Assembly (NCBI GenBank): GCA_046290225.1
Contig: JBKAGE010000075.1
Location: forward strand, 1 to 64,000
DNA length: 64,000 nt
Direction: 5' to 3'
Origin: Bradymonadia bacterium
GTDB lineage: Bacteria > Myxococcota_A > Bradymonadia > UBA7976 > UBA1532
Position numbers and translations under genes: made by a program. The notes under the pieces are model-generated. The model was given only the letters and a program-made list of their open reading frames with translations. It did not search any database and had not been told where the DNA came from. This document shows, piece by piece, positions 7,402 through 43,900 of the stretch; positions within the stretch are counted from its first letter, which is position 1; each line of letters begins with the position of its first letter.

Positions 7402-8094
7402 GTGGTCATGATCCTCCTCGGCCAGATTCTGCTCTGGAGCCACATCGTCTTCGGCGGCCTGGCGCTGCTCATCTTCATGGTGCCTTTGCTCACCAAGAAG
7501 GGGGGCAAGCGTCACAAGCAGACAGGGAAGATCTACACCTTGTCGATGATGCTGGCCGCCATCACTGCCTGGACCGCCATCATCCTGCGCCTCGCCACTG
7601 GTCGATACGACGAAGCCGTGAGCCTGAGCTTCCTCGCTCTGGTGGGACTGTTGGCCTTTGAGAACGTCTTCTACGGTGTGCGCGTGCTCAAACAGAAGCG
7701 CCGAACGGGCCCGCACACAGGCAGCCTCGAGTACGTCATCTCGGGCATCACCGCTCTCGCTGGTGTCGCCGGCCTTGCCTATGGGCTCTATGGCAAGGTG
7801 CAGATTCTCTTCGTGGTCTTTGGTGCGCTCACAGTCAATGTGTGCATCGAGCACGTGAACGAGATGCGCAAGCCGCCCAAGAGCAAGTGGTTTTGGTGGT
7901 ACGCCCACATGGGCAACATGATCACTGCCTGTGTGGCCACTGTGACGGCATTTTTGGTGACGAACATCACCACCAGTCTTGGGGGCAATGCTTGGATGGT
8001 CTGGTTGGCTCCAACGGCCATCGGGGTGCCCGGCATGATCATCTGGACGCGGAAGGAGCGTGAGCGGCTTGAGAGGGCTGCTGTTCGCTCTTGA
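7402..8094 (+). CDS. Multi-pass membrane protein (DUF2306-like)
   Basis: About six hydrophobic segments; His motifs SHIVFG, KKGGKRHKQTGKIY and WWYAHMGNM; abuts the RND stop. Confidence 0.7.
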   Translation: MVMILLGQILLWSHIVFGGLALLIFMVPLLTKKGGKRHKQTGKIYTLSMMLAAITAWTAIILRLATGRYDEAVSLSFLALVGLLAFENVFYGVRVLKQKRRTGPHTGSLEYVISGITALAGVAGLAYGLYGKVQILFVVFGALTVNVCIEHVNEMRKPPKSKWFWWYAHMGNMITACVATVTAFLVTNITTSLGGNAWMVWLAPTAIGVPGMIIWTRKERERLERAAVRS

Positions 8095-8103
8095 GTCTTG
8101 GGG

Positions 8104-8211
8104 GTTGTTGGTAGACTCGCTTCGCTCGCAAGAGAGTTTGTCGGGCACGGGCACGGGCACGGGCACGGGCACGAGTTGATACATATGTGGACCCGTGGCC
8201 CTGCATGACTC
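8104..8211 (+). repeat. GGGCAC extragenic element, copy 1 (left arm of long inverted repeat)
   Basis: GTTGTTGGTAGACTCGCTTCGCTCGCAAGAGAGTTTGTC-(GGGCAC)5 at 8143-8172-GAGTTGATACATATGTGGACCCGTGGCCCTGCATGACTC. Confidence 0.95.
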
Positions 8212-8353
8212 CGCTTGTGGGTGTGTGATGGTGGAGGCTTTACTCGGCCCCATATGTCTCTCATTGGAGGTTTTGGCCTCCATACACCCCAAAACCTGAA
8301 CTCTCAGGTCGCTCCGAAACACATCATCTCAGCTCAATGACAGCCTTCGTCCT

Positions 8354-8458
8354 GAGTCATGCAGGGCCACAGGTCCACGCCCGAGTCAACTCGTGCCCGT
8401 GCCCGTGCCCGTGCCCGTGCCCGACAAACTCTCTTGCGAGCGAAGCGAGTCCAACAAC
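8354..8458 (-). repeat. GGGCAC extragenic element, copy 2 (right arm, inverted)
   Basis: Reverse complement reads GTTGTTGGACTCGCTTCGCTCGCAAGAGAGTTTGTC-(GGGCAC)5-GAGTTGACTCGGGCGTGGACCTGTGGCCCTGCATGACTC. Confidence 0.95.
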
Positions 8459-8575
8459 GCCTCACCCTCAAAGACGACAGCCCCGCCCTGCCACGGAACT
8501 CATCGAAGAGCACCACGGTGTGATATATCTTCCGCCAGATCTCGAAGCTGATCATCAACCGCTCAGGAGCCTGCT

Positions 8576-10641: not shown

Positions 10642-13600
10642 TTAGAAAGCTCCGCCAGCGATCATGTAGGCCATGAGGTTGCGACTGATGTCGGTGAAGC
10701 CGTTGTCGGTGTCCTGCCAGTCGATGTCCACCAGCCAGAGGCGGCCGGCGCCGAGATCGGCGTAACCGAAGGCGGCGTTGTTGGCATCCCAGCCCCCGAG
10801 GGGCACCACGTTGGGGAACCCGTTGACGCTGAAGCCGCAGCCGGACTGGTTGGCGGCGATGGGCTCGAAGCGGTTGTCCGCCCAGAAGGGGTCTTGCGGG
10901 GTGAACTGCACCACGGGCTGCACGTTGTCGCGGCACGAGCCGTTCCGGCGTCCCTGGGCCACATTGGCGTTGAACACGAAGTTATAGACGGTGTGGCTGA
11001 TGTTGTACTCCGTGAGCACTTGGCCACCCTCTTCGATATAGGTGCGGATCGCTGCGGCCTGGGCTTGGGCCTGCCCCACGCCAGAGCGCGAGATCAACAT
11101 GGCTTGGGTGTCGGCGTTGGGTACGCAGCCTTCCTGTACCTGGATCTCCGCCTCGGCCAGCTCGCCGCGGATGAACTCGGCGACGTTGCGGCTCGAGCGG
11201 CCACAGCGCAACACGATGGGCCGTAGATCGCCACAGCGGCCTTCGAGGCACTCCACACCCTCACCACAGGCTCGACCACAGCGTCCGCAGTGGTCAGGGT
11301 TGCTCACCAGATCGGTGCAGACTTCGTCACAGAACCCGTAGCCTTCCTGCTCACAGACATCGCCCTGAGCTGCACACCCCGGATCATCGGGCCAGTCGGT
11401 GTCGCCGTCTTCGTCGTTGTCTTCACCATCAGCACAGAAGGGCGCCACCTCGAGATCGGTCTCGTCATCATCGCGGGCATCGGTACAGCCCACGTCGGCG
11501 AGGTCGACGACACCGTCATCGTCGTTGTCCACGCCGTCGGCGCACCGAGGCAGGACCGGGCCGTCAAGGCGCTCCTGGGTGTCGGCGGCGAAGCGGCAAC
11601 CGGGATCATCGGGGAAGTCGATGCGGTTGTTGTTGTCGTCATCGCGGCCATTGGCGCACTGGGGCGCGAAGTTTGGATCGGTCTCGTCGTTGTCACCGGC
11701 GGCGACACAGCCTGGCTCTCGGGGGAAGTCGGTGATGCCGTCTTCGTCGTCGTCGATGCCATTGCTGCAGGCGGCGAGGACCTCAGGGTCAGCCTCGGTG
11801 CGATCGCCGGCGGCGATGCAACCTGGGTCGAAGGGGTAATCCACGAGGCCATCGCGATCGTTGTCGATCTGGTCGAAGCACTCGGGCTCCACCTCGTCGT
11901 CGATCTCGCTCAGATCTCCAGGGGCGGCGCAGCCCGGATCGTTGGGGAAGTCGTTGAGGCCGTCCTGATCGTCGTCCAGGCGGTTGCTGCAGCGTGTGCG
12001 GACCTCTTCCTCCAGCGGATCACCAGCGGCGAAGCAGCCAGGGTCGAGCGGGTAGTCTGCGATGCCCGACTCGTCGTCGTCGATGCCGTTGCTGCACGCC
12101 GGTGCTTCTTCAGGATCGGTCTCGTCGAGATCACCCTTTGTGGCGCAGCCAGGATCGTCTGGGAAGTCCACGAGGCCGTCATTGTCGTTGTCGACCCCAT
12201 CAAAGCACAGCGACGCAGGATCACCAGGACCCGGGTCACGCTCATCTTCGTCTTCGGCATCAGTGCAGCCGAGATCGTCGGCGTCGGTGAAGCCGTCCTC
12301 GTCGTTGTCGAGCTCGTCGCTGCAGCCTGGGGGCAGGCGCTCTGAGGTGACCGTCAAGCGGAAGTTCGTGCCCGCAGCGAAGCGGGAATCCACGAAGACG
12401 AAGTAGTCACCAGGGGCGGCGCGATCGAGGGTGACCGTACCTTTCTCACCGGCATTGCCGCCGCCACAACCCAGCTCGGTGAGGATGCGATCACACGTGG
12501 TGCGCACGTGGACCAGGGTGTCAGGATCAGTGGCGTCGTTGTCGACGCTGAAGGTAAGTCGGGCGTTGAAGCGGTTGGTATAGAGATAGATGCGCTCCGG
12601 GCCGCCGTTGCCACCGCAGTTGCCCGCAAATCGGCGCTCTCTGTCGGTGTTCGACCCCTGAACGGCCTCCTGGCCAATGGGGAAGAGGTCAAAGCGCACG
12701 CCGGGGCCACAGAGATCGGCCTCGCTCAGGGCAGAAGCCGCGGTGCAGCCAGGGTCGAGGGGCCAGTCGATGAGGCCGTCTTCGTCGTTGTCGACGCCAT
12801 CGGCGCAGATCGGGGGCACCTCGGGATCAGTCTCGTCACGATCGTCTGGTTGAGTGCAGCCCGGATCCTCGGGGAAGTCGATGAGGCCGTCATTGTCGTC
12901 GTCGAGGGTGTTCAGGCATGCCGCCTCGGGCACCTCTTCCACCGTGATGACGAAGTCGCCGCCAATGCCTGTGGCGCCATCGACGAAGATGTAATACGTC
13001 CCCGGCGACACCGTCTCGAGGCGCAGGGTGTTGCCCGCGACCTCGTCCACTGGCTCCCGGGCGCAGGCCAGCTCAGATGCGCCGTTCAGGCAATCAGAGC
13101 GCACGTAGAGCACCGACTCGAGCTCAGTCTCTTCGTGCTCGGTCGTGATCACCAGGGCCTCGAGTGGGGTCTGCACGATGTAGGTGTAGACCACCTCTGG
13201 GGCGCCGGTGCCGCCGCAGCTGCCTTCAGCGTTGAAGGAGCCACCCGCTGTGGTGCCTGTGAGGGGCTCGCCGTTGTCGAGGTAGACCTCGGGCCAGGAT
13301 TCACCGCAGGCCCCAAGCTCGCGGGCGTCTGCTGCTGATTCACAGCCGGGATCATTGGGGTAGTCGGTCAAGCCATCGCGATCGTTGTCGCGATCGTCAC
13401 TGCATTGTGGCGCCACCATCGGGTCGGTCTCGTCGCGGTCTCCCGTGCCGGCGCAGCCGGGATCGATGGGGTAGTCGACGAAGCCGTCGCCATCATTGTC
13501 CACCCCGTCGACGCAGGCCGGCGGGTTGGGGGGATCATCCTCGTCGGGATCACCAGCGGCGCTGCAGCCGGGATCACGGGGGAAGTCGATGAGCCCGTCG

Positions 13601-14190
13601 ACATCATCGTCGATGGTGTTGGCGCACCCGGGCAACTCGTCGGGATCGTTCTCCCGAGGGTCTGCAACGCTGGTGCAGCCAGGATCGGCGATGTCCACCT
13701 TGCCGTCGTTGTCGTCGTCGAGGCCGTTGGCGCATGCCGGCAGCAGGCTCGACCCGTCGTTGAACTCGTCATTGTCGAGGGGGGATCCACAGCCGGGATC
13801 AGCTGGGAAGTCGGTGAAGCCGTCAGCGTCGTTGTCCAGCCCGTCGTTACACGCCGGAACCGGGGGGTCGGTCTCGTCGTTGTCTCGGGCGGCGTCACAG
13901 CCAGGATCATCGAGATCGACGAGACCGTCGTCGTCGTTATCGATGCCATCATTACAGGCCGCAGGTGGGGCCGCATCTGGAGGTGGGGCGGCGTCGGGCA
14001 GACCTCCAGCCGCACCCCCTGTACCGCCTGCGCCACCTGCACCACCCATCATCACACCGCCGGTGGACATATCAGGTGAAGCAGCCTCTTCAGCGTCGTC
14101 ACACCCCGAGATCACACAGCCTGCCAGCAACAGACAGAAGAGGCCCCCAATCGGCAGCGGGCGGCCTCTGACAATACGCTCGTACAACAC
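10642..14190 (-). CDS. Large secreted Cys/Asp-rich repeat lipoprotein
   Basis: Hydrophobic signal ending LAGC; Gly/Pro linker; 17 repeats of C-x-(D/N)GxDxDxDGxxDxxxDPGC counted by eye; two PPC-like beta domains (YYIFVDG, YFVFVDS); Cys-rich module NPDHCGRCGRAC. Confidence 0.85.
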   Translation of the reverse strand: MLYERIVRGRPLPIGGLFCLLLAGCVISGCDDAEEAASPDMSTGGVMMGGAGGAGGTGGAAGGLPDAAPPPDAAPPAACNDGIDNDDDGLVDLDDPGCDAARDNDETDPPVPACNDGLDNDADGFTDFPADPGCGSPLDNDEFNDGSSLLPACANGLDDDNDGKVDIADPGCTSVADPRENDPDELPGCANTIDDDVDGLIDFPRDPGCSAAGDPDEDDPPNPPACVDGVDNDGDGFVDYPIDPGCAGTGDRDETDPMVAPQCSDDRDNDRDGLTDYPNDPGCESAADARELGACGESWPEVYLDNGEPLTGTTAGGSFNAEGSCGGTGAPEVVYTYIVQTPLEALVITTEHEETELESVLYVRSDCLNGASELACAREPVDEVAGNTLRLETVSPGTYYIFVDGATGIGGDFVITVEEVPEAACLNTLDDDNDGLIDFPEDPGCTQPDDRDETDPEVPPICADGVDNDEDGLIDWPLDPGCTAASALSEADLCGPGVRFDLFPIGQEAVQGSNTDRERRFAGNCGGNGGPERIYLYTNRFNARLTFSVDNDATDPDTLVHVRTTCDRILTELGCGGGNAGEKGTVTLDRAAPGDYFVFVDSRFAAGTNFRLTVTSERLPPGCSDELDNDEDGFTDADDLGCTDAEDEDERDPGPGDPASLCFDGVDNDNDGLVDFPDDPGCATKGDLDETDPEEAPACSNGIDDDESGIADYPLDPGCFAAGDPLEEEVRTRCSNRLDDDQDGLNDFPNDPGCAAPGDLSEIDDEVEPECFDQIDNDRDGLVDYPFDPGCIAAGDRTEADPEVLAACSNGIDDDEDGITDFPREPGCVAAGDNDETDPNFAPQCANGRDDDNNNRIDFPDDPGCRFAADTQERLDGPVLPRCADGVDNDDDGVVDLADVGCTDARDDDETDLEVAPFCADGEDNDEDGDTDWPDDPGCAAQGDVCEQEGYGFCDEVCTDLVSNPDHCGRCGRACGEGVECLEGRCGDLRPIVLRCGRSSRNVAEFIRGELAEAEIQVQEGCVPNADTQAMLISRSGVGQAQAQAAAIRTYIEEGGQVLTEYNISHTVYNFVFNANVAQGRRNGSCRDNVQPVVQFTPQDPFWADNRFEPIAANQSGCGFSVNGFPNVVPLGGWDANNAAFGYADLGAGRLWLVDIDWQDTDNGFTDISRNLMAYMIAGGAF

Positions 14191-19268: not shown

Positions 19269-20720
19269 ATGGACCCTCAGGTCTTCGCCATCGGATTGTG
19301 TGTGGTCTATGCCCTGGCCACGTACGGGCTGTCGATCATCGGCATGCGCAAGACGTCTTCATTGAAGTCGTTCGCCCTGGGCAAAGGTGACATGTCACCG
19401 CTGCTCGCTGGGGTGACCATGTCGTCGTCGATCGCCTCGACGGCCACCTTCGTCATCAACCCTGGTTTCGTCTACACCGAGGGGCTCTCCGCCTGGGCGC
19501 ACTACGGTATCTCCGCCATGGCTGGCCTCATCTGTGCCCTCATCGTGTTGAGCAACGGTTTCCAGAAGATCGGCCGCAGCGTCGACGCCGTCACCCTGCC
19601 GGATTGGATGCGCAAGCGGTACGACAGCCCTGCCATGGGCTTCACGTTCGCCTTCCTGACGCTGTTCTACATTTCCTTCGTGGTGCTGATCCTCGGTGGG
19701 AGCGCCATCATCATCAACGGGCTCTTCGGCATCGATTACCACTGGGCCCTGGTGGGTGTACTGGTCTTCGTCTTCGGCTATGTGCTCATGGGCGGCACGT
19801 ACGCGCACGCCTACACGAACTTCTTCCAGGGCGTGCTCATGGTGTTCATCGCCCTCATCGTCTTCGGCTCGGGCTGGGAGCATCTGACCAACGGCTTCGG
19901 TGAGAAGCTCGCCGCCATCGGCACCAGCTTTGCGAGCTGGACCAACCCCGACAGCAAGCTCTACTACGACATGTTCTCGGTGTTCATCTCGAGCTTCGTG
20001 ATCACCTTCGCCCTGATGTTGCAGCCCCACATTTTGACCAAGCTGCTCTACATCAAAGACGACAAGAAGGTGCGCCGGCAGTTCCTCGCCGTGGCCATCG
20101 TCACTGCGCTGATCTTCAACCTGATGCTCTTCGCAGGCTTCTACGCCAAATTCGATGGGGTGGTGGGCAGCTGGAACAACGTGACGGTGAACTACATCAA
20201 AGAGGCCTTCGACCCCTACCTGGTGACCTTCATCTTGATCACCCTGCTCGCTGCGGGCATGTCCACCCTCGACGGCATCCTGGTGTCGATCTCCTCGGTG
20301 GTGGTGGCTGATCTGGTGATTCCACTCTCGGGCAACAGCGAGAAGATGGTGGAGAAGGGTCTGTCGATGAGCCGATATGTACTCGTCGCTGTAGGCCTGG
20401 TTTCGCTGGCCATCGCCTGGGACGCCCCCAAGTCCCTGGGACTCTTCGCTCAGTTGGGGATCTACGGCCTCGTGGCGGCGGCGTCACCGCCCCTCGTGGT
20501 GGGCATCCTGCGGCCGAATTTCAAGCAGGGGAACGCGATGTTGCTGCTCGCAGGGCTGAGCATCGGGATGCACTTCGGGCTGCGCTTCGGATTGGACATC
20601 ATCAATCCCGCGGTGACGGCTGCCTGGGGGGTGATCGCTGGGGTGGGGATTGGGTTTGTGTTGTCTTTTGTTCAGAGTGGGCAGGGGTCTGCGGAGGTGT
20701 CCTCGCTGCGCTCGCAATGA
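19269..20720 (+). CDS. Sodium:solute symporter family protein (PanF/PutP-like)
   Basis: About 13 TM segments; ASTATFVINPG, TLPDWMRKRYDS, LAAGMSTLDGIL; ATG after AGGAG. Substrate not determinable. Confidence 0.88.
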   Translation: MDPQVFAIGLCVVYALATYGLSIIGMRKTSSLKSFALGKGDMSPLLAGVTMSSSIASTATFVINPGFVYTEGLSAWAHYGISAMAGLICALIVLSNGFQKIGRSVDAVTLPDWMRKRYDSPAMGFTFAFLTLFYISFVVLILGGSAIIINGLFGIDYHWALVGVLVFVFGYVLMGGTYAHAYTNFFQGVLMVFIALIVFGSGWEHLTNGFGEKLAAIGTSFASWTNPDSKLYYDMFSVFISSFVITFALMLQPHILTKLLYIKDDKKVRRQFLAVAIVTALIFNLMLFAGFYAKFDGVVGSWNNVTVNYIKEAFDPYLVTFILITLLAAGMSTLDGILVSISSVVVADLVIPLSGNSEKMVEKGLSMSRYVLVAVGLVSLAIAWDAPKSLGLFAQLGIYGLVAAASPPLVVGILRPNFKQGNAMLLLAGLSIGMHFGLRFGLDIINPAVTAAWGVIAGVGIGFVLSFVQSGQGSAEVSSLRSQ

Positions 20721-20770
20721 GAGTTTCGGGCACGGGCACGGGCACGGGCACGAGTTTTACGGGTGTGGAC
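20702..20770 (+). repeat. GGGCAC extragenic element, copy 3
   Basis: CTCGCTGCGCTCGCAATGAGAGTTTC-(GGGCAC)4 at 20728-20751-GAGTTTTACGGGTGTGGAC; contains the symporter TGA (20718-20720). Confidence 0.9.
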
Positions 20771-20902
20771 AGTGCAGCCTGAGGCTGCATGTCTTGGAGC
20801 GAGTGGAGGGCGGCGTAGCCGGCCGGAGGGAGCGGAAAGGCACCCGTAGGGCTGGCCACTGTTGGGTACTGACAGTGCAGCCTGAGGCTGCATGTCTTGG
20901 AG
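20768..20902. repeat. Two exact 32-bp direct repeats with a palindromic core
   Basis: GACAGTGCAGCCTGAGGCTGCATGTCTTGGAG at 20768-20799 and 20871-20902; core TGCAGCCT-G-AGGCTGCA; 71-bp spacer. Confidence 0.9.
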
Positions 20903-37087: not shown

Positions 37088-37867
37088 ATGCGCACTCACT
37101 CGTTTCTGATGGCCTTCGGCCTGCTCACATGTGCCGCGACCGCGGCGCTCGCCGGTACGCCCGAGGAGCGGGGGCTCGAGATCGCCAAGCAAGCCGACGC
37201 CGCCAACGAGGGGTTCAAGTCCGAGGCGTCGACCCTCGCCATGAAGCTGATCAACGCCCACGGCGATGTCACCGAGCGCAAGATGGAGTCGAAGATCCTC
37301 GAAGGAGATGGAGATGGTGATCGCTCCTTCATCGTCTTCGAGGCCCCCGCCGACGTGAAGAACACCAAGATGCTCACGTGGAGCCACAAAAAAGGCACTG
37401 ACGATCAGTGGCTCTACCTGCCCGCCATCAAGCGCATCAAGCGCATCAGCTCGAGGAACAAGTCGGGCTCGTTCATGGGCAGCGAGTTCGCCTACGAAGA
37501 TCTGTCGAGCCCCGAGGTGGAGAAGTTCACCTACAAGTACCTCGCCGACGTCACCGAGAAGGGTCGCGACTGCTGGCAGATGGAGCGCTACCCCATCGAC
37601 AAGAACAGTGGGTACTCCAAGCAGGTGGTGTGGTTGGACAAGCAATACCAGACCCCCGTGCGCATCGACTTCTACGACCGCAAGGGTGAGCTGCTCAAGG
37701 TGGGCACCTACAGCGGCTACAAGCAGTACGGGAAGTTCTGGCGTTGGGGCGCCATCGAGATGGACAACAAGCAGACCCGGAAGAAGTCGATCATCACCTG
37801 GAATGACCGAAAACTCGGCGTCGATCTCGACACTGATGACTTCGAGCGCGACGCCCTCGAAGAGTAA
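37088..37867 (+). CDS. Outer-membrane lipoprotein-sorting (LolA-like) protein
   Basis: Signal peptide; PADVKNTKML, DDQWLYLPA, SFMGSEFAYEDL, FYDRKGELLK. Confidence 0.88.
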   Translation: MRTHSFLMAFGLLTCAATAALAGTPEERGLEIAKQADAANEGFKSEASTLAMKLINAHGDVTERKMESKILEGDGDGDRSFIVFEAPADVKNTKMLTWSHKKGTDDQWLYLPAIKRIKRISSRNKSGSFMGSEFAYEDLSSPEVEKFTYKYLADVTEKGRDCWQMERYPIDKNSGYSKQVVWLDKQYQTPVRIDFYDRKGELLKVGTYSGYKQYGKFWRWGAIEMDNKQTRKKSIITWNDRKLGVDLDTDDFERDALEE

Positions 37868-38073
37868 GAGGTCCTAACACAACGGCGGACCGAGTCAGGA
37901 AGATGAGGCGCGAGTGAGGCAGTCGAAAGATCCACAGGCGGGCCCGAAGGCCCGTCGAGGACGCTTTCGGCTGTATCGCGAAGTGCATCATCTTCCTGGC
38001 GACGGGAGCAGTTGTGTTAGGACCTCTAAGACTTCACCCACCTACTCCACTTTCAGCCCTACCGGAACGAGCC

Positions 38074-39403: not shown

Positions 39404-41752
39404 ATGAACGACGATCTCAAGGTCCCCGCCATCGCCCGCGCGCTGGTGGGGTTCATCGGCCGAAAGCCCTGGGTGGCGCTGTTGCTGGGCCTGGCGACGG
39501 TCTTCGCCATGGGGCCGGGCTTTGCGAAGCTCACCGCCGACTTCACCCACAAGGGCTTCTTCTACGAGGAAGATCCGATGATGGTGAACCTCGAGGCTCT
39601 TGAGCGTCGCTTTGGCAACGACGACTCGGTGGTGGTGGCGGTGCACAGCCCCTCGGGGGTCTTCGACAAGGAGACCGTGGAGCTGTTGCAGAAGCTCACT
39701 GAGGCCATGTGGCTGGCCCCGGACGTGATTCGGGTGGACTCTCTGGCCAACTATCAGTGGGTGCACGCGGAAGAAGACGACATCCTCGTCGAGCCCTTTT
39801 TGCCCGATGACGTGGAGATCACCCCGGAGTTCCTCGCTGCCCGGAAGAAGATCGCCCTGGCCCACGAGACCTTGCCTGACTATCTGGTGAGCGCCGACGC
39901 CAAAACAGCCATGCTCTTCGCCAAAACGAAGCCGGGCTTCGAGAACCCCCCTGATTCACCTGTGGTGGTGAACGCCACTCGCAAAATCATCAAAGAGCTC
40001 GAAGCGGGCGATCACACTTTCTTCATCAGTGGCGGCCCCGCCATCAACACCGCCTTCATGGAGGCGGCGCAGATGGACATGCAGCGTATCATGCCGGTGG
40101 TGCTCGGCCTCACGGTGTTGTTGCTCATCGCGCTGTTCCGCCGCGCAGGGGGCGTGTTCTTGCCTCTGTTGGTGGTCATCCTCGCGGTGATGGGCACCAT
40201 GGGCTTCTCGGGTCTCGTGGGCCTCGAGATCACCAACATCACCGCCATCCTGCCCCAGGTGCTGCTGGCCATCGGCATCGCCGACGGGGTGCACATCATG
40301 GTGACGTTCTATGGCGCGATTGGCAGAGGCGCCACCAAACGCGAGGCGGCAGACTACACGCTGCTCAAGAACTTCCTGCCTACGCTGTTGACCAGCCTCA
40401 CCACTGCGGTGGGCTTTTTCAGCTTCATCACCGCAGATCTCAAGCCGGTGAGCGGGCTGGGCCTCATGGCGGGCCCCGGCACCCTGCTGGCGTGGTACGT
40501 GACCTACTTCGTGCTCGGGGCCCTGCTCTACATCCTGCCCTTCAAGGAGAAGGCCCGGCCTGCAGAGGCCATCGAGGCCCGCAAGCGCAGGGCTCTGGAC
40601 TTCACCAGAATGCTGCAGACCAACCGCTCAGGGATCCTGTGGGTGTTTGGGATTCTGTCGGTGAGCGCAATCGCCATCGCGGCTCAGAACACGGTGAACT
40701 CTGATCCATTCAAGTACTTCGAGGAAGGTTTCCCCGCCCGTGTGGCCAACGAGTTCATCGAGGCTGAAGTGGGGGGCGCCCGAGGGGTGGAGCTGGTGGT
40801 GGACTCTGGCAAGGCAGAGGGCATCAAAGATCCAGCCTTCCTCAAGAAGGTCGAAGCGCTTCAGATCTGGCTCGAAGACATGCCACGTGTGACGCGCACC
40901 CTGTCGATCGTCGACATCCTCAAGTCGACGCACCGATCGCTCCACGGAGACGATCCAACGAAGTACGCCCTCGCGGAGACTCAGGAGGCCATCGCCCAAG
41001 AGCTGTTGCTCTACACGATGAGCCTGCCCCAGGGCATGGATGTGAACGATCGCATCTCCGTGAAGAACGACACGCTGCGCATCACAGTGCTCTGGACGAT
41101 TCCCACCTCTTCGGAGAACGTGGAGGCCTTCGCGCACATCAGAGGCAAGGCCAAGCAGCTGGGCCTCGACGTGACGGTTACGGGCAAGAACGTCCTGTAC
41201 CAAAGCATGAACGGCTATGTGGTGAACTCCTTCCTGGTGTCGTTCACCGCGGCGGTGGTGCTCATCAGCCTGCTGCTGGTGATCTTCTTCAAATCGGTGA
41301 AGCTGGGCCTCATCGCCATGATCCCCAACCTGATCCCACTCATCGCCGGCGGCGCGGTGCTGTACCTCATCGGTCAGCCCCTGGACATCGGCACGGTGCT
41401 GGTGGCTTCGGTCTGTCTGGGCATCGCCGTGGACGACACGATCCACATCCTGGCGAACTTCAACCGTGCTCGACTCGAGGGTAAGAGCCGACAACAGGCG
41501 GTGACGGAGGTTTTGGCCTACACGACGCCGGCGCTGCTGGTGACGACGTCGATCCTGGTGCTGGCCTTCGGCAGCTTCCTGGCGGCCACCTTCATGCCCA
41601 ACCTCTACTTCGGCCTGATGGTGGCGGTGATTCTGCTGGTGGCGCTGATTACGGACGTGACCTTCCTGCCGGCGATGGTGATGGGGCGGGGGGATGATGG
41701 GGATACACCCCAGAAGTCTGGATCTGTTCGTCGGGTGCCTCAGGAAGTGTGA
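39404..41752 (+). CDS. MMPL/RND-family exporter
   Basis: Two-fold repeat; AIGIADGVH, LLTSLTTAVGF, LGIAVDDTIH, TFLPAM. Confidence 0.9.
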   Translation: MNDDLKVPAIARALVGFIGRKPWVALLLGLATVFAMGPGFAKLTADFTHKGFFYEEDPMMVNLEALERRFGNDDSVVVAVHSPSGVFDKETVELLQKLTEAMWLAPDVIRVDSLANYQWVHAEEDDILVEPFLPDDVEITPEFLAARKKIALAHETLPDYLVSADAKTAMLFAKTKPGFENPPDSPVVVNATRKIIKELEAGDHTFFISGGPAINTAFMEAAQMDMQRIMPVVLGLTVLLLIALFRRAGGVFLPLLVVILAVMGTMGFSGLVGLEITNITAILPQVLLAIGIADGVHIMVTFYGAIGRGATKREAADYTLLKNFLPTLLTSLTTAVGFFSFITADLKPVSGLGLMAGPGTLLAWYVTYFVLGALLYILPFKEKARPAEAIEARKRRALDFTRMLQTNRSGILWVFGILSVSAIAIAAQNTVNSDPFKYFEEGFPARVANEFIEAEVGGARGVELVVDSGKAEGIKDPAFLKKVEALQIWLEDMPRVTRTLSIVDILKSTHRSLHGDDPTKYALAETQEAIAQELLLYTMSLPQGMDVNDRISVKNDTLRITVLWTIPTSSENVEAFAHIRGKAKQLGLDVTVTGKNVLYQSMNGYVVNSFLVSFTAAVVLISLLLVIFFKSVKLGLIAMIPNLIPLIAGGAVLYLIGQPLDIGTVLVASVCLGIAVDDTIHILANFNRARLEGKSRQQAVTEVLAYTTPALLVTTSILVLAFGSFLAATFMPNLYFGLMVAVILLVALITDVTFLPAMVMGRGDDGDTPQKSGSVRRVPQEV

Positions 41753-41753
41753 A

Positions 41754-41845
41754 AAGAGAGTTTCGGGCACGGGCACGGGCACGGGCACGGGCACGAGTTG
41801 ATACATACGCGGACCCGTGGTCCTGTCTGGGCTCAGGTTGTGGGT
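41754..41845 (+). repeat. GGGCAC extragenic element, copy 4 (5'-truncated)
   Basis: AAGAGAGTTTC-(GGGCAC)5 at 41765-41794-GAGTTGATACATACGCGGACCCGTGGTCCTG...TTGTGGGT; begins immediately after the MMPL stop. Confidence 0.93.
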
Positions 41846-42061: not shown

Positions 42062-43900
42062 CTAGTAAACGTCTTTGAGGTAGCGGCCGTTCTTGCTCAT
42101 CCATTTGAGCAGGGCCTTGGCGTCGCCTTCCGAGTAGCGGCCGTAGGTCATGATCACCTTCATCAGCGCCGCGTGTACATCCTTCGCCATGCGGCTCGCG
42201 TCGCCGCAGATGTAGATGTGGGCATCAGCGTCGATCCACTCCCAGAAGTCCTCGCCGTTCTCGAGGATGCGATCCTGCACGTAGATCTTGTGCTCTTGAT
42301 CACGAGAGAACGCCAGATCGAGGCGTGAGATCAGGCCGCTCTGGTACCAGCGCTCCACCTGCTCTTGATAGAGGTAGTCGCAGTGGGCGTGGCGGGCGCC
42401 GAAGAAGAGCCAGTTGTAGCCCTGAGCGCCGCGGGCCTCGCGCTCTTCGAGGAAGGCGCGGAAGGGGGCGATCCCCGTGCCTGGACCGATCATGATGATC
42501 GGTGCGTCGTCGTCATCGGTGATCTTGAAGTTGGGGCTGCGGTGCAGATACACCGGCACCCGACTGCCCGGTGGGCAGCGCTCACCGAGGAAGCTGCTCG
42601 ACACGCCTTTTCGGTTGCGGCCGTACATGTGATAGCGCACCACGTCCACGGTGAGGTGAACCTCGCCGGGGTGGGCCTTGGGGCTCGAAGAGATCGAGTA
42701 GAGCCGGGGGGCCAGGGGCTTGAGCGCTGCAGCGAAAGATGCCGCGTCGGGGCGGATGCCCGCGAGGCTGAGCAGATCGCCCACATGGTGCTTGCCGATG
42801 TACTCCTTGCGGGCGTCGGCGCTGTTGGCGATCGGCTGGAAGAGATCTCCGGCGTAGCGGCTCTCTGCCGCGAGCTTGAGCAGCCGGGCGTCGATCTTGA
42901 TGATGTCCAGCCGATGGGTGAGGGCGTCCAGCAAGGTCATGGCCTGACCCTGGACTTCCACCACCTCGTCGCCCCGCAAGCCCACGTTCTGCAGCGTCCA
43001 GCGGACGAGATCCGGACAGTTCTGAGGGAACAGCCCCAGGGCATCGCCCACCTTGTAGTCGATGCCGGAGCCGCGCAGCGACAGCGCCACGTGGCGGGTC
43101 TCTTTGTCGGAGTCGGCGCCGTTCAGGTTGTGGTTGACCAGGATGGTCGACATGAACGGGTTCTTGCGGGAGCCGATCTCCGGCTCTTTGGGTGCCTTGG
43201 CCGGGGTGGGCCTGGGACGCGCTGTGGGCTGTGGGCGGGCTACGGGCCGCGGTGGGGTCAGAACCTCGGCGGGCTCGTCGTACTGAGAGTCTTCGTACTC
43301 GGACTCGTCGTATTCGGACTCGTCGTACTGGGACTCTTCGTACTGGGACTCTTCGTACTGGGATTCTTCGTATTGGGATTCATCGTACGCTGACTCGTCG
43401 TATTCAGACTCGTCGTATTCCGATGCGTCTGGAGCCGCAGCGTCAGCGGAGAGATCGAGCTTGCCCAGACCGGCGATGACCTGACCCAGCCAAGCCTCGA
43501 AAGGCTCTTCGAAGTCGACGTCGCAGTCCTGTCTGGGGGCGAAGCGCTTTGCCCCCAGGGCGGCGAGGCGGCTGTCGAAGTCCTTGGCGCACTGGCAGAA
43601 CTCGTCATAGCTGGTGTCGCCGAGGCCACAGACGCTGAAATTCACGCCGGAGAGGCTTGGTGCGTCGTCGTCCATCAACGCCGCATGAAGATCTTCTGCG
43701 TTCGAGGGAGGCTCGCCATCACCGAACGTGCTGGTGACGATGAGCAGCACCTGAACGTGCGGCAGGTTGTCGGGGTCGAAGTCGTCCATATCGAGGACTT
43801 CAGCTGTGTAGCCCCGACCTGTGAGTGCCTCGCCGGCCTGCTCGGCGCAGCCCTGGGAGTTGAAGGTCTCGGTGCCATACAAAATGTAAATCGTCGACAT
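42062..43900 (-). CDS. CysJ-like diflavin (FMN/FAD/NADPH) reductase
   Basis: Flavodoxin domain (TSTFGDGEPP, GLGDTSY), RLYSISSS, MIGPGTGIAPFR, LAFSRD, YICGDASRMAKDV, C-terminal RYLKDVY. Confidence 0.9.
   Translation of the reverse strand: MSTIYILYGTETFNSQGCAEQAGEALTGRGYTAEVLDMDDFDPDNLPHVQVLLIVTSTFGDGEPPSNAEDLHAALMDDDAPSLSGVNFSVCGLGDTSYDEFCQCAKDFDSRLAALGAKRFAPRQDCDVDFEEPFEAWLGQVIAGLGKLDLSADAAAPDASEYDESEYDESAYDESQYEESQYEESQYEESQYDESEYDESEYEDSQYDEPAEVLTPPRPVARPQPTARPRPTPAKAPKEPEIGSRKNPFMSTILVNHNLNGADSDKETRHVALSLRGSGIDYKVGDALGLFPQNCPDLVRWTLQNVGLRGDEVVEVQGQAMTLLDALTHRLDIIKIDARLLKLAAESRYAGDLFQPIANSADARKEYIGKHHVGDLLSLAGIRPDAASFAAALKPLAPRLYSISSSPKAHPGEVHLTVDVVRYHMYGRNRKGVSSSFLGERCPPGSRVPVYLHRSPNFKITDDDDAPIIMIGPGTGIAPFRAFLEEREARGAQGYNWLFFGARHAHCDYLYQEQVERWYQSGLISRLDLAFSRDQEHKIYVQDRILENGEDFWEWIDADAHIYICGDASRMAKDVHAALMKVIMTYGRYSEGDAKALLKWMSKNGRYLKDVY
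43274..43423 (-). repeat. Intragenic 15-bp x10 tandem repeat encoding S(E/Q/A)Y(D/E)(E/D)
   Basis: Ten in-frame units, e.g. + strand CTCGTCGTATTCGGA and CTCTTCGTACTGGGA, in the FMN-FAD domain linker. Confidence 0.95.

What the first reader, a model, noticed from the sequence alone, without database searches (positions are those of the whole stretch)
20637..20699. Third-position cytosine loss in genes immediately 5' of each GGGCAC element
Seen: gene bodies here strongly prefer C-ending codons, yet the three genes abutting the element switch to G/T endings at their 3' ends. Symporter 20637-20699 has 0 of 21 consecutive codons ending in C (gct ggg gtg ggg att ggg ttt gtg ttg tct ttt gtt...), and this still encodes a normal TM helix. 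MMPL 41666-41749 has 1 of 28. The membrane protein at 8044-8085 has 0 of 14. Beyond the inverted copy (8459-8500) the + strand is C/A-rich, which is the same skew on the element's strand. Gene ends without the element (kbl, the 2OG oxygenase, the CysJ-like gene) keep C-ending codons. Inference: either the element causes local strand-specific mutagenesis (e.g. C loss on exposed ssDNA or error-prone repair), or selection removes C-rich RNA that would pair with the G-rich repeat or load Rho. The windows were picked by eye, so counts are post hoc.
Basis: partly seen in the sequence, partly recalled or inferred. Interest (0 to 1): 0.82.

Follow-up and report, generated by a model that had tools for sequence, protein, structure and literature searches.

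The report
Repeats that rewrite neighbouring genes
A short repeated DNA element scattered through this bacterium's genome is surrounded by a zone a few hundred bases wide in which one DNA strand steadily loses C (and some A), changing the codons and even the amino acids of whichever gene lies next to it, which points to an undescribed local, strand-specific force on mutation or repair.

Summary
Real and genome-wide. The three counts are exact. Across 131 (GGGCAC)n elements, C at four-fold sites on the element strand falls from 0.49 to 0.13 and recovers with a 143-nt decay; control gene ends stay at 0.43-0.49. The loss follows the element's DNA strand: it also hits genes read the other way and non-coding DNA, is equal on both replichores, nearly context-free, and includes A. 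It is absent at generic G-quadruplex motifs, terminator-like hairpins and 12 E. coli REP gene ends. Paralogues show the losses are derived. Two other repeat families here and hexamer arrays in a related genus repeat it; three more distant genomes do so weakly or not. Two families bracket an Avd-like four-helix-bundle gene; no RAYT was found. Divergence between two relatives shows C-to-G raised and G-to-C lowered, which fits biased repair or fixation better than added damage alone. Best reading: the repeat marks one strand as repair template or exposed strand for a few hundred bases (inferred). Selection on DNA is not excluded; pairing or Rho on the mRNA is disfavoured. Not found in ten literature searches.

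The parts
20637..20699 (+). C-depleted 3' end of the sodium/solute symporter gene (19269-20720): steepest part of the zone
   Evidence: 0 of 21 codons end in C; 3 of last 30 against 12-21 of 30 in 7 family homologues; family
20200..20700 (+). Approximate reach of the zone upstream of this element (genome-wide decay length 143 nt, detectable to 400-600 nt)
   Evidence: pooled profile and fit; boundary is approximate
20702..20716 (+). Outer mini-hairpin motif (GC-TNC-GC on this strand, GC-GNA-GC on the other); it overlaps the last codons of the symporter
   Evidence: sequence; copies with it show the stronger loss, O/E 0.55 vs 0.69, p 0.008
20717..20756 (+). Family A leader and (GGGCAC)4 array (array 20728-20751), single copy
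20765..20902 (+). About 100-nt internal module with a palindrome, one whole and one partial copy; 31 copies aligned genome-wide
8044..8085 (+). C-depleted 3' end of membrane protein gene 7408-8094
   Evidence: 0 of 14
8107..8458 (.). Family A inverted doublet: 105-nt arms, (GGGCAC)5 at 8143-8172 (+) and 8393-8422 (-), outer hairpins on both arms
   Evidence: (I1, 91% complementary); 37 such pairs
8459..8500 (-). Non-coding flank of the inverted arm, C/A-rich on +, so G/T-rich on the element strand
   Evidence: 20 C and 10 A of 42
41666..41749 (+). C-depleted 3' end of MMPL/RND-type transporter gene 39404-41752
   Evidence: 1 of 28; family
41753..41825 (+). Family A leader, (GGGCAC)5 at 41765-41794 and truncated arm; no outer hairpin
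   Evidence: (D16)

Best explanation
A family of dispersed repeats, partnered with an Avd-like four-helix-bundle gene, creates a strand-polarised substitution zone. SHOWN: the zone, its strand, its decay, that it is derived, and that it recurs with other repeats of this kind. INFERRED: at the repeat the strand carrying the GC-GNA-GC mini-hairpins or C-rich array is repeatedly nicked or displaced and remade over patches of about 100-500 nt, with the G-rich strand as template and transiently single-stranded. Damage to C and A on the template strand (deamination, abasic sites) is then fixed, while damage on the remade strand is erased. C and A leave the template strand faster and return slower; with this genome's preference for G/C the freed sites fill with G and T. 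It is a neutral by-product of how the element is processed, not an adaptation of the genes. The nicking or unwinding enzyme is not identified.
For: Strand rule independent of gene direction (sense OR 0.37, antisense OR 0.55), of replichore (OR 0.41 in 61 arrays vs 0.40 in 54) and nearly of sequence context (5' p 0.54, 3' p 0.04). Both amino bases fall: models with C only fit badly (G2 97-238, or 44-49 for C>T plus C>G), C plus A fit (G2 20-27; C>T plus A>G 23 under one of three assumed spectra). Same sign pattern as the genome's leading-strand skew but several times larger and more C-heavy. Derived: within 150 nt, 20 of 107 ancestral C lost vs 4 of 101 G, sister paralogues 5 C lost and 11 gained (7 flanks). 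It overrides protein composition: Pro 4.1 vs 6.3%, Gly 10.4 vs 8.4% in the last 30 residues of 65 genes. In G019, 42 of 44 flanks of one-way arrays have C<G on the G-rich strand, on both sides. G019/G041 divergence: C>G up and G>C down about equally (alpha 0.5, 17 cells); C>T loss up about 2.5-fold with gain little changed (small counts). Hairpin polarity: TNC 306 vs GNA 11 (family B), 168 vs 11 (family C) on the C-poor strand. Precedent for reach: E. coli TnpA-REP cuts ssDNA over more than 400 nt on both sides of a BIME (PMC3333891, passages).
Against: No nuclease is linked to the elements: no Y1_Tnp in the genome, and four-helix-bundle proteins are not known nucleases (own knowledge). Element interiors show no bias against consensus (C>T 12 vs G>A 13; 10 vs 14; 36 copies), though two opposed arms act there. 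No link with an age proxy (rho 0.04, n 102) or array length (rho 0.12). A young repeat upstream of one element has 0 C>T among 4 private changes. The two-way rate change is equally what selection predicts. Outer flanks of the 38 outward-facing pair flanks in G019 are C-poor reading inward for the first 150 nt, opposite to the nearest-arm rule. G240, G245 and G258 give weak or mixed signals, and four-helix-bundle loci from other phyla show none (3 of 10 upstream, 5 of 9 downstream). Family A itself has only a slight TNC excess near the array (84 vs 69).
Confidence: 0.5

Rival explanations
1. Selection on DNA or on a strand-specific element transcript: each C or A within a few hundred bases on the element strand costs fitness (for example it favours cleavage, R-loop failure or Rho termination of an RNA that runs into or out of the element), so G/T alleles fix preferentially.
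For: Two-way rate change with alpha 0.5 is the classic fixation-bias signature; 'selection against C and A' fits the equilibrium as well as any mutation model (G2 20-26); divergence at four-fold sites is not raised near elements (0.18 vs 0.22).
Against: It must act base by base, without sequence context, in both gene directions and non-coding DNA, beside three unrelated repeat families, and strongly enough to shift amino acids. C>T loss is raised with little change in gain.
Confidence: 0.2
2. Simple exposure: the G-rich strand is held single-stranded (R-loop, G-quadruplex or hairpin extrusion on the other strand) and deaminates; nothing changes on the other strand.
For: C>T dominates the closest paralogue case (6 C>T and 1 C>G in the last 131 nt); C>T plus A>G at about 6-fold fits under a transition-rich spectrum; four or five GGG runs make a G-quadruplex motif (sequence; 89 of 158 arrays have five units).
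Against: Pure C>G hypermutation is rejected in G019/G041 (delta lnL about 10; 0 of 40 simulations); 744 other G-quadruplex motifs show nothing, no replichore dependence; families B and C lack G runs.
Confidence: 0.15
3. Strand-biased gene conversion: the repeats start recombination with a fixed invading strand, and mismatch repair treats G:G, G:T and C:C, A:C mismatches unequally, giving a fixation bias that decays with tract length.
For: Gives alpha 0.5 without selection; exponential decay fits tract lengths; element copies are mosaic (alignment).
Against: NucS, whose specificity (recalled) would give the whole G/T bias, is not found over cut-off in 28 of 28 family genomes; MutS is in 28 of 28 and would (recalled) explain only the C/G part.
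Confidence: 0.08
4. Target choice: the elements insert into or survive at sites that were already G/T-rich on one strand.
For: Control flanks do have a tail (82 of 3785 intergenic regions reach a summed z of -4); no age correlation.
Against: 14 of 111 arrays vs 20 of 7570 control flanks reach z -4; paralogues show derived losses; homologues without the element have ordinary ends; one gene end reads 44 G:3 C beside the array and 9 G:36 C in G007 without it (that orthologue is skewed the other way, so it is not a neutral control).
Confidence: 0.07

Closest known systems
REPIN / BIME elements with RAYT (TnpA-REP) (PMC3116915, PMC3333891; passages read)
   Same: Dispersed extragenic inverted doublets of fixed spacing, about 100 copies, at gene ends, with a small gene inside one doublet; targeted by an insertion sequence; TnpA-REP acts on ssDNA over more than 400 nt around the repeat.
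   Different: No Y1_Tnp in the genome; the partner gene is a TIGR02436 four-helix-bundle protein; arms carry hexamer arrays; 12 E. coli REP gene ends show no C loss; 'skew' in these two papers does not refer to base composition.
Replication-linked GC skew by cytosine deamination in ssDNA (PMC6263442, passages read)
   Same: G and T up, C and A down on one strand; same sign pattern as this genome's leading strand.
   Different: Centred on a repeat, 143-nt decay, several times stronger, equal on both replichores, converging on inverted pairs.
Strand asymmetries around human CpG islands and R-loop regions (PMC2817419, PMC3787257; search listing and abstract start only)
   Same: Substitution or composition asymmetry that starts at a fixed sequence feature and decays with distance.
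   Different: Eukaryotic, tied to transcription or origins; here bacterial, tied to a mobile-looking repeat and independent of gene direction.
Diversity-generating retroelements (Avd plus RT; own knowledge)
   Same: An Avd-like four-helix-bundle gene and local, base-specific sequence change.
   Different: The only RTs found are two retron-like genes elsewhere (label recalled); no template/variable repeat pair was sought out or seen at the elements; change is C/A to G/T in flanking genes, not A to N in a variable repeat.

Membership tests
REPIN/RAYT system | Repeats occur as extragenic inverted doublets of conserved spacing | tested here: met
   37 +/- pairs, most 286-304 nt; family B 34 pairs, most 464-472 nt
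REPIN/RAYT system | Associated HUH Y1 transposase (RAYT) gene | tested here: not met
   PF01797: 0 matches in the 99.4% complete genome, 6 of 14 control genomes ring
REPIN/RAYT system | 5' GTAG (or equivalent) tetranucleotide before an imperfect hairpin | tested here: inconclusive
   Family A leaders read by eye show no fixed GTAG; family B begins with GTAG; not tested formally
REPIN/RAYT system | Excision or transposition intermediates | not testable with these tools
   Only one low-share contig run was available
TIGR02436 / PF05635 four-helix-bundle protein | HMM score over the curated cut-off for the gene inside a doublet | tested here: met
   71 and 92 bits vs cut-off 24; PDB 2gsc XCC0516 E 9e-11; each of the 2 genes lies inside a doublet
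Diversity-generating retroelement | DGR-type RT beside the Avd gene | tested here: not met
   2 RT matches, both at C79:178-181 kb, on another contig than either four-helix-bundle gene
Diversity-generating retroelement | A-to-N changes between template and variable repeat | tested here: not met
   Polarised flank changes are C>T 11, C>G 7, C>A 2, A>N 3
Replication-linked strand skew | Sign depends on fork direction | tested here: not met
   OR 0.41 vs 0.40 on the two replichore orientations (orientation inferred from regional skew)
Transcription-linked asymmetry of the host gene | Follows the coding strand of the gene | tested here: not met
   Present in antisense genes; in G019 coding strands become C-rich on the 3' side of one-way arrays
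G-quadruplex-induced mutagenesis | Other G4 motifs in the genome show the same zone | tested here: not met
   744 motifs flat; 105 non-coding ones at most slightly shifted; folding itself not tested
Known structured RNA family | Rfam match | tested here: not met
   0 matches at gathering score in window 7900-42200

The most novel reading that the evidence does not exclude
Four-helix-bundle-associated repeats are an undescribed class of mobile element whose processing puts strand-specific nicks or ssDNA at hundreds of chromosomal sites and so sets the repair template locally; each copy writes a dated, oriented footprint into neighbouring genes, up to the protein sequence, and the footprint can be used to read the element's mechanism and history.
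Probability: 0.35. Interest if true: 0.9.

Novelty: new variant of a known kind. Interest (0 to 1): 0.8.

Why it matters
Strand asymmetry in bacteria is explained by replication and transcription. Here a third source acts at about 290 fixed points (131 + 86 + 74 copies of three families), is several times stronger than the replichore skew and reshapes codons, stop codons (TAG 18 of 65 vs 657 of 6106) and residues of ordinary genes. It gives the first mechanistic handle I could find on repeats that travel with the uncharacterised four-helix-bundle proteins: a strand, a polarity and a length scale that can be tested directly. It also warns that codon-usage and selection scans near such repeats can be misled.

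Tried and rejected
Reads: one run listed, small share, contigs only; no RNA holder listed; laid pieces did not cover the flanks, so no polymorphism data. The leader-plus-array pattern was not found in 40 relatives nor in genome contigs; no congener exists in the collection, so G000 could be polarised only by paralogues. Insertion-sequence end pattern: 0 matches in metagenome contigs, family unknown. G4 stalling at the fork and terminator effects rejected. CT-dinucleotide avoidance as for TnpA-REP sites rejected: T rises after C. NucS-driven conversion rejected. I expected MutH to be missing, but a MutH-family hit is present (38 bits), so that argument was dropped. Stand-alone TNC hairpins give only a weak trend (58 sites, 0.39-0.42 vs 0.48). 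A first per-bin fit of three rate models was ambiguous (observed 250 C/G differences; 263 hypermutation, 216 biased fixation); the alpha fit used 17 one-way cells or 33 cells with pairs. G240 gene calls are disturbed by other hexamer runs, so its weak signal is not a clean negative; the single G287 locus was not analysed. 16 of 80 four-helix-bundle loci (mostly extra copies from two genomes, or short) were left out. Preprints 10.64898/2026.09.22.753630 and 10.64898/2026.09.25.754379 (term passages only) did not bear on this. No supplements were read.

Full report
Observation. The three windows have 0 of 21, 1 of 28 and 0 of 14 C-ending codons, in genes that average 0.43-0.49. The named control genes keep 11-13 of 21. 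The genome (8.58 Mb, 64% G+C, 83 contigs) holds 131 leader-anchored (GGGCAC)n arrays, 37 of them forming inverted pairs mostly 286-304 nt apart. I called 6106 genes with a self-trained model and pooled all copies.

The zone. On the element strand, C at four-fold sites of genes read towards the element is 0.13, 0.18, 0.29, 0.34, 0.40, 0.42, 0.46, 0.49 at 30-60, 60-100, 100-150, 150-200, 200-300, 300-400, 400-600 and 600-1000 nt. For genes read away on the other strand it is 0.12, 0.16, 0.20, 0.24, 0.26, 0.28, 0.31, 0.33. Non-coding DNA goes from 0.17 to 0.30. Control 3' ends (916 and 3484 genes) stay at 0.43-0.49 and control starts at 0.28-0.34. A logistic fit gives amplitudes 2.4 and 1.6 and a decay length of 143 nt; A is also reduced (OR 0.52-0.74 in four site classes). 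The effect is the same for paired, single and IS-interrupted copies, on both replichore orientations, and nearly free of neighbour context. It reaches the proteins: Pro, His, Thr down, Gly, Val up, p about 1e-6, 65 genes.

Controls. 744 other G-quadruplex motifs and 189 terminator-like hairpins show no zone; nor do 820 other non-coding triloop hairpins or 12 REP-adjacent gene ends among 133 E. coli genes in 200 kb (a small sample).

It is derived. Of 131 flanks blasted against the genome I polarised 7 that had two or more paralogous hits. Within 150 nt the flank lost 20 of 107 ancestral C and 4 of 101 G and gained 3 C; sister paralogues lost 5 C and gained 11. Beyond 300 nt the flank lost 76 of 567 C and 54 of 533 G. 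Seven family homologues of the symporter have 12-21 C-ending codons in the last 30 against 3 here; two of them look frameshifted at the end. Choosing pre-skewed sites is unlikely but not impossible: 14 of 111 arrays against 20 of 7570 control flanks reach z -4.

What the element is. One family A pair encloses a TIGR02436/PF05635 four-helix-bundle gene (C72:82618-82929); the genome's only other such gene sits inside a pair of an unrelated family B (86 copies). No RAYT was found. Families B and C (74 copies) show the same loss, weaker (0.32 vs 0.48; 0.36 vs 0.51). On the C-poor strand B and C carry GC-TNC-GC motifs far more than GC-GNA-GC; family A copies with the outer motif are more depleted. 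That d(GNA) loops make unusually stable DNA hairpins is recalled, not tested. Relatives of the protein in several phyla are flanked by similar hexamer arrays, and the four-unit array occurs in 34 of 301 genomes of the phylum. Earlier notes of this scan describe such cassettes in other genomes but not the zone.

Replication elsewhere. In G019 (same family, other genus; 90 flanks) one-way arrays give C 0.17, 0.22, 0.37 on the 5' side and 0.28, 0.32, 0.36 on the 3' side of the G-rich strand, against 0.47-0.49 far away; 42 of 44 flanks have C<G. G041 loci agree. Against generality: outward-facing pairs behave differently in the first 150 nt; G240 (40 loci), G245 (12) and G258 (7) are weak or mixed; flanks of four-helix-bundle loci from other phyla show no pooled skew (64 of 80 loci, 10 and 9 measurable flanks).

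Mechanism. Equilibrium fits need loss of both C and A and cannot separate mutation from selection. Divergence between G019 and G041 can in part: four-fold differences are not raised near elements (0.18 vs 0.22), and the best fit splits the shift equally between more C>G and less G>C (alpha 0.5; simulations under pure hypermutation gave 0.7-1.3) (assumes equilibrium and shared elements). C>T loss at two-fold sites is about 2.5 times higher with gain little changed. A strand that serves as the fixed repair template, and is exposed while the other is remade, predicts this pattern, the decay and the independence from gene and fork direction. That step is inference: no nick, enzyme or ssDNA was observed, interiors show no bias and there is no age trend. 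Selection at the DNA level gives the same two-way signature and stays the main rival. For reach, TnpA-REP cutting ssDNA over more than 400 nt on both sides of a BIME is a precedent (PMC3333891, passages), but that enzyme is absent here.

Novelty. Ten full-text searches returned no paper on repeats partnered with four-helix-bundle genes or on a substitution zone around bacterial repeats; the library lacks most subscription papers. Strand-asymmetric gradients from fixed sites are a known kind (PMC6263442 passages; PMC2817419 and PMC3787257 listings only), so I file this as a new variant of that kind, carried by an element that fails the RAYT and DGR membership tests. Verdict: real, strong, unexplained by known causes tested here; interest 0.8.

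Noticed in passing
G000 contig ends, e.g. C6:70167, C13:43740, C35:65, C47:66: One insertion sequence sits inside GGGCAC arrays at many sites: 14 left and 10 right junctions, always between repeat units; its body is not assembled. Looks like a repeat-targeting element (IS110-like is a guess).
   Followed up: partly
G000 C77:107024-107839 (L001) and 85 other places: Family B repeat: 34 inverted pairs mostly 464-472 nt apart, one enclosing a second four-helix-bundle gene; same C-poor flanks.
   Followed up: yes
G000, e.g. C75:159506 and C70:76700: Family C (74 copies, chains of mini-hairpins separated by a fixed 11-mer) and family D (4-15 copies); further recurring non-coding 16-mers suggest more families.
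   Followed up: partly
G000 C79:178718-180977 (L015, L016): Two reverse transcriptase genes facing each other, retron-like by appearance, with a short family B pair between them.
   Followed up: no
G000 C50:55562-57123: A 387-aa transposase-like gene inserted inside a family A pair.
   Followed up: no
window 37859-38035: Inverted repeat (51-nt arms) related to another dispersed element with more than 20 copies, one of which lies just upstream of a family A array on C35.
   Followed up: partly
window 10642-14190 (-) and 43256-43447: Protein with many 37-residue acidic repeats, and a 15-nt tandem repeat inside the CysJ-like gene.
   Followed up: no
L139 / L142 (G019, G041): An array pair lies directly between two coding stretches on the same strand that look like one interrupted gene.
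   Followed up: no
L229 (G007): Gene end strongly G-ending in G007, with no hexamer array in the locus; another repeat type may act there.
   Followed up: no
G000 C4:3484-3726: MutH-family domain in a 234-aa frame; may be a Sau3AI-like nuclease.
   Followed up: no
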